Below are positions 23,685 through 25,884 of a stretch of DNA of 25,925 nt, in pieces. The notes below the pieces were generated by a model, which saw only the letters and a list, made by a program, of their open reading frames with translations, searched no databases and was not told where the DNA came from. Every line of letters begins with the position of its first letter. The first letter of the stretch is position 1. The stretch is from Gemmatimonadaceae bacterium. Lineage in GTDB: Bacteria; Gemmatimonadota; Gemmatimonadetes; Gemmatimonadales; Gemmatimonadaceae. The DNA is taken from positions 1-25,925 of the forward strand of contig JACMOE010000134.1 of NCBI GenBank assembly GCA_014378185.1, written 5' to 3'. A program made the translations under genes and the position numbers.

Positions 23685-24503
23685 TCAGGCGATGCTCTCC
23701 GGCTCCAGCGTCTTCTCCACCACGGCGCCGTTCACGACGCTCACGTAATAGACCTTGGCGTTCAACCGGGTATGGACGATGCGCTTCACCTGCGTGTCCT
23801 CGAAGTAGATGCCGGCGTCGTTGTCGCATGCATAGCCTGGCTTCATGCGTCCCGAGCCAATGAGCTGGTGGTACAGCGGCCTGCGGCCTGCTTCGGCGTC
23901 GTAGTGCGGGCTGTGGCTGCCCGGCAGGAAGCCGAGGCACTTGACGATGGAGAGCTCCCTGGGCCGCGAGTCGGTGGTGCCTTCCTCGAACCAGCAGAGC
24001 GAACCGGCGCTCGCCCCGCCCAGGACGATGCCCTGGTCCCATGCGCGACGGAGCACGGTGTCGATGCCCTGTGCCTTCCAGATGGCCTGCTGGTTGAGCG
24101 TGTTGCCACCGGAGGCCACGATGCCGTCCACGGAAAGCAGTACCTCGTCCCATCCGCGTGGTTGCGTGAGGCTTTCGATGAAGCTGGTCTGCACCTGGGG
24201 CTCGACGTCCAGCCGGCTGCAGTCCTTGTAGAAGCGAATGATTCCCGCCTGGTCGTCGGCGGACGCCGTGGGGAGGTAGAGAATCCTGGGACGCGCCTTG
24301 CCGGTGAGCGTCGCCATGTAGCGAATGAACGCTTCGTTGAATCCGCCACCGGCAATGAGGATCTTGCGCGTGGCAGCCGTTGGCATGGTGTCGTGAAGCA
24401 TCGTGGCGAGCGGGTGAAGGTGGCCGTCGGCGGGCGCGAGGTGGCCAGCGCCGAGTGCGACTGCGCCCAGGGCCGACGAGGTGAGGAAGTCCCTTCGCTT
24501 CAT
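23685..24503 (-). CDS. Peptidase S51 family (peptidase E/cyanophycinase-like, class I GATase-like fold) with Tat signal
   Basis: MKRRDFL twin-arginine signal, 'ILYLPTASAD', 'SGGNTLN', nucleophile elbow GASAGS and catalytic His in 'SPHYD'. Confidence 0.88.
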   Translation of the reverse strand: MKRRDFLTSSALGAVALGAGHLAPADGHLHPLATMLHDTMPTAATRKILIAGGGFNEAFIRYMATLTGKARPRILYLPTASADDQAGIIRFYKDCSRLDVEPQVQTSFIESLTQPRGWDEVLLSVDGIVASGGNTLNQQAIWKAQGIDTVLRRAWDQGIVLGGASAGSLCWFEEGTTDSRPRELSIVKCLGFLPGSHSPHYDAEAGRRPLYHQLIGSGRMKPGYACDNDAGIYFEDTQVKRIVHTRLNAKVYYVSVVNGAVVEKTLEPESIA

Positions 24504-24541
24504 TGAAAGTGCGGGTGTTGGTGGGAGTGCACAGCACGTCC

Positions 24542-24746
24542 AACGTACCTCGGCACCGCTTGTTTGTCATGGCATGCTTCACGAAGCCAGGCGCCAGCCT
24601 TCAGTCGTCCAGGGGTCAGCTCCGGCTAACAGCGTTCAGGGGTGTGCTTGCCGGGGTCCCGGGACCATTTACGCCACGCCGCTGACGGCTGTTCAAGCTG
24701 GGGCTGACCCCTGGACGACTGCAGGCTGATCGCCGAGGTGCGTTTT
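24542..24746 (+). ncRNA. Candidate ~205-nt highly structured RNA / nested inverted-repeat element of unknown family
   Basis: Closing stem 24542-24554/24732-24744 (13 bp). Long helix 24595-24627/24696-24728, containing a perfect 19 bp at 24602-24620/24703-24721. Inner helices run to an apical 12-bp palindrome at 24655-24666. Four G·U wobbles on the + strand, followed by TTTT. The inverted repeat is certain; the RNA status is inferred. Confidence 0.55.
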
Positions 24747-24945
24747 ACGGAGAGTCTTGAGTCGTCCGTTACCAGTCAGCGACAGTCACCAGTTGACCGC
24801 GGCTCGCCCCCTGTTCCCCCTTCGCTCGGAACGGCTAGCGATCTCGTTGGATTCACCGACTGGCCATTCGTGATGCGAAGCAGTAAAAGAGTATGCGCTG
24901 CCGCCTCCATCACGCCGTTCCACGACGACATCAACCGGTTCCGCC

Positions 24946-25884
24946 ATGAAAGCCAACTCCATTCTCGAGACCATCGGCAACACCCCGCACGTCCGCATCA
25001 ACCGCCTGTACCCCGATGCCGCCGCCCGGAACATCGAGGTCTGGTTCAAGCTGGAGCGCAGCAATCCTGGCGGTAGCATCAAGGATCGCATCGGGGTCGC
25101 GATGATCGAGGATGCCGAGAAGCGGGGCGTGATCAAGAAGGGATCGACGATCGTGGAGCCCACGTCGGGCAACACAGGCATCGGCCTCGCGATGGCCGCG
25201 GCGGGAAAGGGGTACCGCTGCATTCTCTGCATGCCCGATTCGTTCTCGGTCGAGCGGCGCCGACTGCTCGTGGCGTACGGCGCGGAGCTCGTGCTCACGC
25301 CGCGCGAGCTCGGCATCAAGGGCGCCATCGCGAAGGCCGAGGAGATCGTTGCCGCCACGCCCGGTGCGTGGATGCCGATGCAGTTCGAGAACCCGGCCAA
25401 CGTGGCGATCCACAAGCACACCACGGCGCAGGAGATCCTGCGCGACTTTCCGGAAGGGCTCGACTACCTCATCACCGGCGTGGGCACCGGCGGTCACATC
25501 AGCGGAGTGAGCGAGACGCTCAAGCTCACCATGCCCAGGCTGAAGACGTTCGCGGTGGAGCCTGCCAAGTCCACGGTACTGAGCGGAGGCACGCACACGC
25601 CGCACAAGCTCCAGGGCATTGGCGCGGGCATCATTCCAGGCAACTTCCACGCAGCCACGGTGGACGGCTACATCCAGGTCACCGAAGAGGATGCGTTCGC
25701 CTACGCGGTTCGCTCGGCGAAGGAGGAAGGCATCTTCGTGGGCCCGTCATCCGGCGCATCGCTCGCGGCGGTGGCGAACAAGCTGCCGGAGATTGCGGAG
25801 GGCAGTCGCGTGCTGGCGTTCTGCTACGATACCGGTGAGCGCTACCTGTCGGTTGAAGGGCTGTTTCCCACTGTCCCTGCGTGA
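24946..25884 (+). CDS. cysK: Cysteine synthase A (O-acetylserine sulfhydrylase)
   Basis: 'IGNTP', PLP-lysine motif '[11 protein letters not shown]', '[12 protein letters not shown]', 'QFENPAN', 'GVGTGG', 'HKLQGIGAG' and 'DTGERYLS'. Confidence 0.96.

What the first reader, a model, noticed from the sequence alone, without database searches (positions are those of the whole stretch)
24542..24746. Unexplained ~205-nt nested hairpin with strand-specific G·U pairs between the S51 peptidase and cysK
Seen in sequence: (i) closing stem AACGTACCTCGGC (24542-24554)/GCCGAGGTGCGTT (24732-24744) followed by a T-run. (ii) A 40-nt 5' side arm with a GCTT-CACG-AAGC hairpin (24576-24587), opposite only 3 nt on the 3' side. 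(iii) A 33-bp helix 24595-24627/24696-24728 with one mismatch and a perfect 19-bp core CAGTCGTCCAGGGGTCAGC/GCTGACCCCTGGACGACTG. (iv) Continuing helices AACAGC/GCTGTT, TCAG/CTGA and GGTGTG/CACGCC. (v) An apical perfect palindrome GGTCCCGGGACC (24655-24666). Four non-Watson-Crick positions (24546·24740, 24621·24702, 24624·24699, 24643·24678) are G·U on the + strand but would be A·C on the - strand, which suggests selection on a + strand single-stranded fold. Inference: the size and closed rod shape recall 6S RNA. The layout (terminal repeat, short-stem arm, long hairpin, terminal repeat) recalls a retron msr-msd, though no reverse transcriptase is present in the window. It could also be a new sRNA, a cysK leader, or a non-autonomous REPIN/MITE-like element. 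No adjacent gene explains it.
Basis: partly seen in the sequence, partly recalled or inferred. Interest (0 to 1): 0.75.

Follow-up and report, generated by a model that had tools for sequence, protein, structure and literature searches.

The report
Dispersed palindromic intergenic repeat copy
The big hairpin is real, but its 134-nt core is one copy of a hairpin-forming intergenic repeat family restricted to one Gemmatimonadaceae genus (like ERIC, YPAL or mycobacterial TRIT), not a 6S RNA, retron or unique small RNA gene.

Summary
The structure exists as described. Window 24535-24760 folds at -137.6 kcal/mol (z -9.9). Only the core, 24595-24728, is a conserved unit. It is one copy of a family of imperfect palindromes of about 125-150 nt.

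- Copy numbers: 3 sites in this 77%-complete MAG and about 7-30 in some congeners. 17 of 55 genomes of the genus carry it. Outside the genus there are only weak hits.
- Build: each arm is about seven quasi-heptamers, (T)CAGNNN, around a conserved GGTGTGGCG...CGCCACACC hairpin.
- Structure: pairing is kept (86.6% of cells) with compensatory changes, including whole-helix swaps between subfamilies.
- Strand: G.U versus A.C is 43:43 across the family, and orientation to the upstream gene is 8:7. There is no strand-specific selection.
- Position: most copies lie 7-60 nt after a stop codon (pth, gyrA, pckA, coaX).
- Turnover: the same sites hold other hairpin or heptamer repeats in other genomes.
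- Negative searches: no Rfam family, no reverse transcriptase, no RAYT in any BLAST-detected carrier, and no target-site duplication.
- This copy: it is atypical. It sits in a divergent S51/cysK spacer and is absent from the syntenic spacer of a close relative. The outer 13-bp stem and side arm are local and not conserved.

Verdict: an ordinary kind of element and an undescribed family. Its mobility and any 3'-end hairpin function are inferred.

The parts
24595..24728 (.). Core repeat copy: a 134-nt imperfect palindrome and the only part that recurs in other loci and genomes
   Evidence: BLAST and CM hits in the own genome and congeners. The CM hit spans 24587-24735 at 121.6 bits. Alignment A1 holds 20 copies.
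24595..24635 (+). Left arm: quasi-heptamer array (T)CAGNNN repeated about six times
   Evidence: CAG/CTG spacing is 6-8 nt in 181 of 216 intervals across the family.
24636..24685 (.). Central module TCAGGGGTGTG...CGCCACGCCGCTGA with the apical GGTCCCGGGACC hairpin (24655-24666). This is the most conserved block and is shared by both subfamilies.
   Evidence: Invariant and nearly invariant columns in A1. The block is shared with the G032/G064 subfamily.
24686..24728 (+). Right arm: the complementary NNNCTGA quasi-heptamer array
24542..24554 (+). Left arm of the local outer stem. It lies inside a 19-mer (24538-24556) that is 19/19 identical in the element-free syntenic spacer of G011, so it predates the extra DNA.
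   Evidence: The motif is not repeated in the genome and is not upstream of S51 in G033 or G072.
24732..24744 (+). Right arm of the local outer stem, followed by TTTT. It has no counterpart in G011 and its origin is unexplained.
24555..24594 (+). Unique 40-nt 'side arm' with the small hairpin 24576-24587. It has no homologue in the genome or in relatives.
   Evidence: hits cover only query positions from about 47 onward.
23685..24503 (-). Peptidase S51 gene, divergent left neighbour. Its start lies 91 nt from the core.
   Evidence: Pfam PF03575, E 2.4e-31.
24946..25884 (+). cysK-like PALP enzyme gene, divergent right neighbour. Its start lies 217 nt from the core.
   Evidence: Pfam PF00291, E 4.5e-73.

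Best explanation
Window 24595-24728 is one copy of a non-coding, hairpin-forming intergenic repeat family confined to one genus of Gemmatimonadaceae.

Shown:
- Each element is an imperfect palindrome of 125-150 nt.
- Its arms are inverted arrays of about seven (T)CAGNNN quasi-heptamers around a conserved GGTGTGGCG...CGCCACACC stem-loop.
- Copies are dispersed, occur in either orientation, and lie overwhelmingly a few tens of nt after stop codons.

Inferred mechanism:
- The elements spread, or are regenerated, at gene 3' ends by an unidentified trans-acting process. This could be MITE-like transposition, recombination or conversion between copies.
- They persist there because a long orientation-independent stem in the co-transcribed 3' UTR is harmless or useful. 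It could serve as a bidirectional terminator or insulator, a barrier to 3' exonucleases, or an RNase III site, as proposed for TRIT, REP, ERIC and Correia elements.

The window copy:
- It is an atypical, lineage-specific gain in a divergent promoter spacer.
- Its outer stem and side arm are accidents of the local flanks, not part of a 205-nt RNA gene.
For: - Multi-copy and dispersed. There are 3 sites in G000 (C659, C444, C339), 7 in G029, and about 16-30 in G034, G064 and G032. 17 of 55 congeners carry it, this tally including the unpublished G012.
- Restricted to the genus. Outside it, hits reach at most 42 bits in 3 of about 139 genomes of the order. The true matches in the public species set are Gemmatimonadaceae MAGs.
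- Structure kept. 86.6% of cells are paired against 29-47% with slid partners, and 11 pairs (35 cells) changed on both sides. Whole helices are swapped between subfamilies.
- No strand signal. G.U to A.C is 43:43, and sense to antisense relative to the upstream gene is 8:7.
- Position. 16 of 18 family-1 copies lie 7-77 nt after a stop codon (pth, gyrA, pckA, coaX, regulators). Of 27 G032/G064 sites with both neighbours called, 20 are tandem, 5 convergent and 2 divergent.
- Presence/absence. The syntenic S51-cysK spacer of G011 lacks the element. The pth 3' end is filled in 11 of 30 genomes (this count includes G012) and is a direct pth-ychF junction in most others.
- Site kept, family swapped. 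The pckA 3' end has this family in G075 and G029 but a different -142 kcal/mol hairpin repeat in G000. The pth site holds subfamily 1, subfamily 2 or plain heptamer arrays.
- No Rfam family matches.
Against: - No mobilising enzyme was identified.
- No target-site duplication is visible.
- No autonomous parent was found.
- Copies are old, at 70-85% identity, so recent transposition is not shown.
- No transcript data exist, so an RNA-level role is pure inference.
- There is no consistent U-tract after the stem, so these are not canonical intrinsic terminators.
- Enrichment at 3' ends could merely reflect purifying selection against insertions in promoters.
- Compensatory changes in a palindrome can arise by arm-to-arm template switching without selection.
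- The window copy is not at a 3' end, so any 3'-end function does not apply to it.
- The genomes are fragmented MAGs, and repeats sit at contig ends. All counts are therefore lower bounds and absences are soft.
Confidence: 0.8

Rival explanations
1. The arms are arrays of phased binding sites for a protein that recognises CTGA/TCAG heptamers on DNA or RNA. The hairpin is a by-product of placing two arrays in inverted order. The family would then be a fixed form of the inverted heptamer arrays seen in several phyla.
For: CAG/CTG periodicity of 6-8 nt is strong and arm-specific, 256 against 28. Plain heptamer or octamer arrays occupy the same pth site in G071, G005, G008 and G014. Inverted (GGGGTCA)n...(TGACCCC)n arrays occur in Acidobacteriota, Planctomycetota, Bacteroidota and other Gemmatimonadota. 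Published CTGA-core heptamer arrays, TAACTGA (PMC4679880) and paired MTYCTGA arrays in Geobacter (PMC2700814), were proposed to be regulator binding sites.
Against: No candidate binding protein was identified. In the folded state the heptamers are sequestered in the stem. The variable positions of each heptamer co-vary with the opposite arm, so pairing rather than heptamer sequence is what is kept. The link to arrays in other phyla rests on motif resemblance only.
Confidence: 0.12
2. It is a REPIN-type element, an inverted REP doublet mobilised by a RAYT (Y1 transposase).
For: It is a hairpin-forming inverted doublet, intergenic, without TSD, and its copies diverge within a genome.
Against: PF01797 was found in 12 of 54 congeners but in none of the 8 carriers detected by BLAST, G000 included. 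The element is much longer than a REP doublet and has a conserved central module. No copies flank a transposase gene.
Confidence: 0.04
3. It is a strand-specific structured ncRNA gene of about 205 nt: 6S-like, a new sRNA, or a cysK leader.
For: The fold is very stable, the + strand copy has 4 G.U and 0 A.C, and TTTT follows the outer stem.
Against: There is no Rfam 6S, SRP or other hit. The outer stem and side arm are not conserved anywhere. The element is absent from the syntenic G011 spacer and from 28 other cysK loci. The family-wide G.U to A.C count is 43:43. The rod lacks the large central bubble of 6S. No consensus promoter or terminator was found.
Confidence: 0.03
4. It is a retron msr-msd template.
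For: Layout only: terminal inverted repeat, a short arm and a long hairpin.
Against: There is no RT in the window and no RVT_1 in the assembly (77% complete). Copies are multi-copy, lie next to unrelated housekeeping genes, and occur in either orientation.
Confidence: 0.01

Closest known systems
TRIT (Tuberculosis Rho-independent terminator motif) of Mycobacterium (Gardner et al. 2011, PMC3152330)
   Same: A conserved-sequence palindromic hairpin that is multi-copy, bidirectional, restricted to one GC-rich genus and tightly associated with gene ends. The authors suggested that a factor binding the double-stranded motif is involved.
   Different: As I recall, TRIT is much shorter. The paper gives 147 copies centred at about -8 relative to the stop codon. 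The family here measures 125-150 nt, starts 7-60 nt after the stop, has quasi-heptamer arms, and has far fewer copies per genome.
ERIC/IRU (127 bp) and YPAL/RU-2 (168 bp) enterobacterial intergenic palindromic repeats (review PMC2229807)
   Same: Imperfect palindromes of about 125-170 nt that are non-coding, intergenic and co-transcribable as long stem-loops, with filled and empty sites between relatives. YPAL is also not AT-rich, lacks TA termini and inserts at or next to dyad symmetries.
   Different: ERIC and YPAL make target-site duplications, and ERIC effects depend on orientation. Here no TSD and no orientation bias were seen. There is no sequence similarity. The heptamer-periodic arms are not a feature of ERIC or YPAL.
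Correia/NEMIS elements of Neisseria (PMC2229807)
   Same: Elements of about 105-155 nt with terminal inverted repeats that fold into long hairpins in mRNAs and are proposed RNase III substrates. They are genus-restricted and often lie near gene ends.
   Different: Correia elements have 24-bp TIRs with TA duplication, an IHF site and hundreds of copies. None of these is seen here.
REP/REPIN-RAYT systems (PMC3116915)
   Same: Inverted doublets that form hairpins, are extragenic and lack TSD.
   Different: The defining RAYT partner was not found in any BLAST-detected carrier. Unit size and architecture also differ.
CTGA-core heptamer arrays: TAACTGA repeats (PMC4679880) and Geobacter paired MTYCTGA arrays (PMC2700814)
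   Same: Tandem 7-nt units containing CTGA/TCAG in intergenic DNA. In Geobacter they are drawn as two arrays on opposite strands.
   Different: Those are simple direct arrays, often just upstream of start codons. Here the units are degenerate, strictly inverted, closed by a conserved central hairpin and placed after stop codons.

Membership tests
6S RNA | Match to the Rfam 6S covariance models | tested here: not met
   cmscan at E<=10 over 24300-25000 lists only MIR1151, VA and mir models, all below their gathering scores. There is no 6S hit.
6S RNA | Single conserved locus in related genomes, and a rod with a large central bubble | tested here: not met
   The element is multi-copy and absent from the syntenic G011 spacer. 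The fold has only small internal loops.
Retron msr-msd | An adjacent or genomic retron reverse transcriptase | tested here: not met
   No RVT_1 in the assembly (the assembly is 77% complete, so this is a soft negative). The neighbours are S51 and cysK.
Retron msr-msd | msDNA production with a branching G | not testable with these tools
   This needs wet-lab detection.
REPIN/RAYT | A RAYT (Y1_Tnp) gene in genomes that carry the repeat | tested here: not met
   PF01797 is present in 12 of 54 congeners but in 0 of the 8 carriers detected by BLAST. MAG incompleteness applies.
MITE | Terminal inverted repeats | tested here: met
   The whole element is an imperfect palindrome. In the G032 subfamily the inverted ends extend to GCGCCGGACATCAG.
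MITE | Target-site duplication flanking the copies | tested here: not met
   No direct repeats were seen at the edges in alignments of about 55 copies with flanks. The right edge of the window insertion cannot be fixed.
MITE | An autonomous element with the same ends | tested here: inconclusive
   All 48 arm matches in G032 pair within 200 nt or less, or are solo. None was seen to bracket a kb-sized segment. Only four genomes were checked.
MITE | Filled and empty orthologous sites | tested here: met
   S51-cysK spacer: filled in G000, empty in G011. The pth 3' end is filled in 11 of 30 loci.
ERIC/YPAL-type intergenic palindromic repeat (descriptive class) | An imperfect palindrome of 100-200 nt that is non-coding, intergenic, multi-copy and folds into a long stem-loop | tested here: met
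TRIT-like 3'-end hairpin | Palindromic, genus-restricted, enriched at gene termini | tested here: met
   16 of 18 and 33 of 41 sites face a stop codon. The family is genus-restricted.
TRIT-like 3'-end hairpin | Actual termination or 3'-end formation at the element | not testable with these tools
   There are no transcript data. There is no consistent U-tract.

The most novel reading that the evidence does not exclude
The element may be a fixed member of a much wider, undescribed class: inverted arrays of CTGA/TCAG-core heptamers that mark gene 3' ends in Gemmatimonadota, Acidobacteriota, Planctomycetota, Bacteroidota and Geobacter. A conserved machinery would generate them or bind them. The rapid swapping of sequence families at fixed sites (pth, pckA) would then reflect a dedicated process that installs hairpins at 3' ends, rather than ordinary transposition.
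Probability: 0.12. Interest if true: 0.7.

Novelty: new member of a known kind. Interest (0 to 1): 0.35.

Why it matters
It removes a false lead. This is not a 6S RNA, a retron or a new sRNA gene.

It documents, apparently for the first time, a structured intergenic repeat family in the poorly studied Gemmatimonadaceae.

Two aspects deserve follow-up:
- The arms are heptamer-periodic, which links the family to CTGA-heptamer arrays reported in other phyla.
- The same gene 3' ends carry different hairpin families in different species. This suggests either a real need for a strong hairpin there in a GC-rich organism without U-tract terminators, or targeting of these sites by several repeat families.

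The repeats also sit at contig ends, so they contribute to the fragmentation of these MAGs.

Tried and rejected
- Rfam at a permissive threshold gave only spurious hairpin look-alikes.
- The outer-arm 13-mers and the 19-mer are not repeated in the genome beyond chance.
- Insertion into pre-existing hairpins as a family habit: cis flank complementarity equals trans by duplex energy and by longest complementary run. Rejected.
- A general link to PF05635 (23S rRNA IVS / Avd-like) genes: they adjoin the hairpin only at the pth site in 5 genomes. Other PF05635 genes and other hairpins are not neighbours. Rejected as a general rule.
- The short (~50 nt) BLAST matches are not outer hairpins without the core. 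They are left-half elements with shared flanks.
- A candidate 8-bp direct repeat (CTCGGCAC / CTCGGAAC) and right-hand homology with G011: the local alignment is not above shuffles. Dropped.
- The gyrA 3' end of G000 is not in the assembly, so no filled/empty comparison was possible there.
- The promoter/terminator consensus scan of 24400-25000 found nothing.
- The earlier-findings look-up returned only an unrelated note on another part of the window.

Full report
**Observation.** RNAfold of 24535-24760 gives the same nested rod. The + strand folds at -137.6 kcal/mol (z -9.88) and none of 200 dinucleotide shuffles is as stable. The - strand folds at -120.7 kcal/mol (z -7.38). The neighbours are a Peptidase_S51 gene (23685-24503, -) and a PALP/cysK-like gene (24946-25884, +), so the hairpin lies in a divergent spacer.

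**What recurs and what does not.** A search of the window's own assembly (G000: 808 contigs, 77% complete) with 24542-24746 found a second copy at C444:3669-3799. It is 81% identical but covers only query positions 60-193, which is the long helix. Relatives gave the same picture. Hits always cover about 24595-24728 and never the outer stem or the 40-nt side arm. A covariance model built on 20 copies finds the family in 17 of 55 genomes of the genus. Distinct sites number 3 in G000 (C659, C444, C339), 7 in G029, about 16 in G034, about 20 in G064, and about 19-30 in G032. One of the 17 carriers, G012, is an unpublished genome. It contributes only to this tally and to the pth-site count below. 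Outside the genus, only 3 of about 139 genomes of the order give weak matches of 42 bits or less. A two-arm pattern scan of the public species set returned true members only from Gemmatimonadaceae MAGs. Rfam has no family for it. At E<=10 only miRNA and VA models score, all well below their gathering thresholds.

**Anatomy of the family.** Elements are imperfect palindromes of 122-150 nt, and each copy folds alone at -75 to -109 kcal/mol. On alignment A1, 86.6% of pair cells are standard pairs, against 29-47% when the 3' partners are slid by 1-3 columns. Eleven pairs (35 cells) changed on both sides, and no shuffle reaches the observed covariation score. A sister subfamily (G032, G064, G011, G012, G069, and G000:C339) carries whole-helix compensatory swaps. 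CAGTCGTTCAG/CTGAACGACTG becomes CAGGTGCTCAG/CTGAGCACCTG, and the apical GGTCC/GGACC becomes GGTGC/GCACC. The GGTGTGGCG...CGCCACACC core is kept. The arms are quasi-heptamer arrays. Successive CAG in the left half, or CTG in the right half, are 6-8 nt apart in 181 of 216 intervals, and there are 256 such triplets against 28 of the opposite kind.

**No strand-specific signal.** The window copy has 4 G.U and 0 A.C in the core. Over the family the count is 43 G.U to 43 A.C, and the sister copy in the same genome has 0:4. Orientation relative to the upstream gene is 8 sense to 7 antisense, and the pth-site copies of G000 and G009 point in opposite directions. Whatever is selected is symmetric.

**Where the copies sit.** Sixteen of 18 family-1 copies with a called neighbour lie 7-77 nt after a stop codon. 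The upstream genes are unrelated housekeeping genes: pth, gyrA, pckA, coaX, a Crp-type regulator and a response regulator. In G032 and G064, 27 sites have both neighbours called. Of these, 20 are tandem, 5 convergent and 2 divergent, and 33 of 41 sites face at least one stop codon, typically 15-40 nt away (a rough GC3-based gene caller was used). The window copy, sitting between two gene starts, is the exception.

**Presence/absence and turnover.** G011 keeps S51-cysK synteny but has a spacer about 250 nt shorter with no element. The 19 nt GTCCAACGTACCTCGGCAC, which include the left arm of the outer stem, are 19/19 identical there. The right arm is missing. The left arm is therefore older than the extra DNA. 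The right edge of that extra DNA cannot be fixed, because the apparent homology is not above shuffles. Twenty-eight other cysK loci have no element upstream.

At the pth 3' end the hairpin is present in 11 of 30 genomes, always facing a convergent PF05635 gene inserted between pth and ychF. Most other genomes have pth running straight into ychF. G068 keeps half an element. G071, G005, G008 and G014 have plain heptamer or octamer arrays at the same place. At the pckA 3' end, G075 and G029 carry this family. G000 instead carries a different hairpin of about 200 nt (-142 kcal/mol), built from GCTCGCTGGACGGGG-type units. That second family has about 31 sites in G000, many at contig ends. Repeats therefore break this assembly, and all copy numbers are lower bounds.

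**Tests of named families.**
- Retron: no RVT_1 in the assembly.
- REPIN: Y1 transposases occur in 12 of 54 congeners but in none of the 8 carriers detected by BLAST.
- MITE: inverted ends and filled/empty sites are met. No target-site duplication is visible, and no arm pair brackets a kb-sized segment.
- PF05635 genes adjoin the hairpin only at the pth site.
- The outer 13-bp stem is not a family trait. Flank complementarity in cis equals that in trans, and the 13-mers are not repeated in the genome.

**Interpretation.** That this is a genus-restricted, structured, dispersed intergenic repeat family is shown. How it spreads is inferred. Filled/empty sites, genome-specific subfamilies and family swapping at fixed sites point to mobility, or to conversion between copies, by an unknown agent. 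Its possible role is also inferred. The position just after stop codons, the independence from orientation and the maintained pairing fit a co-transcribed 3'-end hairpin. Such a hairpin could be a bidirectional terminator or insulator, an exonuclease barrier or an RNase III site. The same has been argued for TRIT in Mycobacterium (PMC3152330) and for ERIC, Correia and YPAL elements (PMC2229807). The distribution could equally be what purifying selection leaves behind. There is no consistent U-tract. The heptamer periodicity recalls the CTGA-core heptamer arrays of Beggiatoaceae, Cyanobacteria and Bacteroidetes (PMC4679880) and the paired MTYCTGA arrays of Geobacter (PMC2700814). Inverted GGGGTCA arrays turned up in four other phyla. 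This supports a minority reading in which the arms are phased protein-binding sites.

**Verdict.** The 205-nt unit, the 6S, retron, sRNA and leader readings, and the strand-selection argument are not supported. This is a new member of a known kind of element, with moderate interest.

Noticed in passing
G000:C504:9276-9475 (own genome, not in the window); about 31 sites genome-wide: A second, more abundant hairpin-repeat family built from GCTCGCTGGACGGGG / CCCGTCC...AGCGAGC units. It occupies the pckA 3' end, where congeners carry the window's family. Many copies lie at contig ends, so these repeats fragment the assembly.
   Followed up: partly
L002:1655-2020 (= G000:C444, - strand) and the same site in 10 congeners: A PF05635 '23S rRNA-intervening sequence protein' (Avd-like four-helix bundle) gene is inserted between pth and ychF. 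It is always convergent with pth and the hairpin lies between them. Genomes without it have pth followed directly by ychF.
   Followed up: partly
G000 contigs C128:2750-3000, C767:4500-4670, C222:4890-5050, C503:1943-2013: Other inverted heptamer arrays: (GACGGGG)n...(CCCGTCC)n flanking (ACTCGTG)n, and GTACC-type arrays. The C503 array lies just 3' of another PF05635 gene.
   Followed up: no
L107-L111, L114-L118, L120 (public MAGs of Acidobacteriota, Gemmataceae, Saprospiraceae, Brocadiaceae and other Gemmatimonadota): Inverted arrays of GGGGTCA/TGACCCC-type heptamers around unrelated centres. They are not members of this family but have the same arm logic.
   Followed up: no
window 24538-24556: The 19-mer GTCCAACGTACCTCGGCAC lies 34 nt upstream of the S51 start. 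It is 19/19 conserved at the same distance in G011 while its surroundings diverge. It is absent upstream of S51 in G033 and G072. It may be a promoter or operator element, since its - strand reads GAGGTACGTT.
   Followed up: partly
L210, L213-L216 (G064): A third hairpin family made of CAGC hexamer/heptamer units (…GCTGCAGCCGCAGCC…GGCTGCGGCTGCAGC…). It lacks the GGTGTGGCG core and was picked up weakly by the covariance model.
   Followed up: no
L057:1530-1584, L058:1666-1720, L061:1490-1541, L062:1497-1547: Left-half elements with shared non-palindromic flanks (GCGCCAGCTCGAGGGCC...GCGCCGCGAACGAT), conserved in two copies each in G029 and G075. They may lie in a conserved gene or another repeat.
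   Followed up: no
window 24765-24800: Just 3' of the hairpin lies a short arm-like tract, TTGAGTCGTCC...CCAGTCAGCGACAGTCACCAGTTGACC, with about 7-nt CAGT spacing. It may be the remnant of another arm. Neither nhmmer nor TRF detects it.
   Followed up: partly
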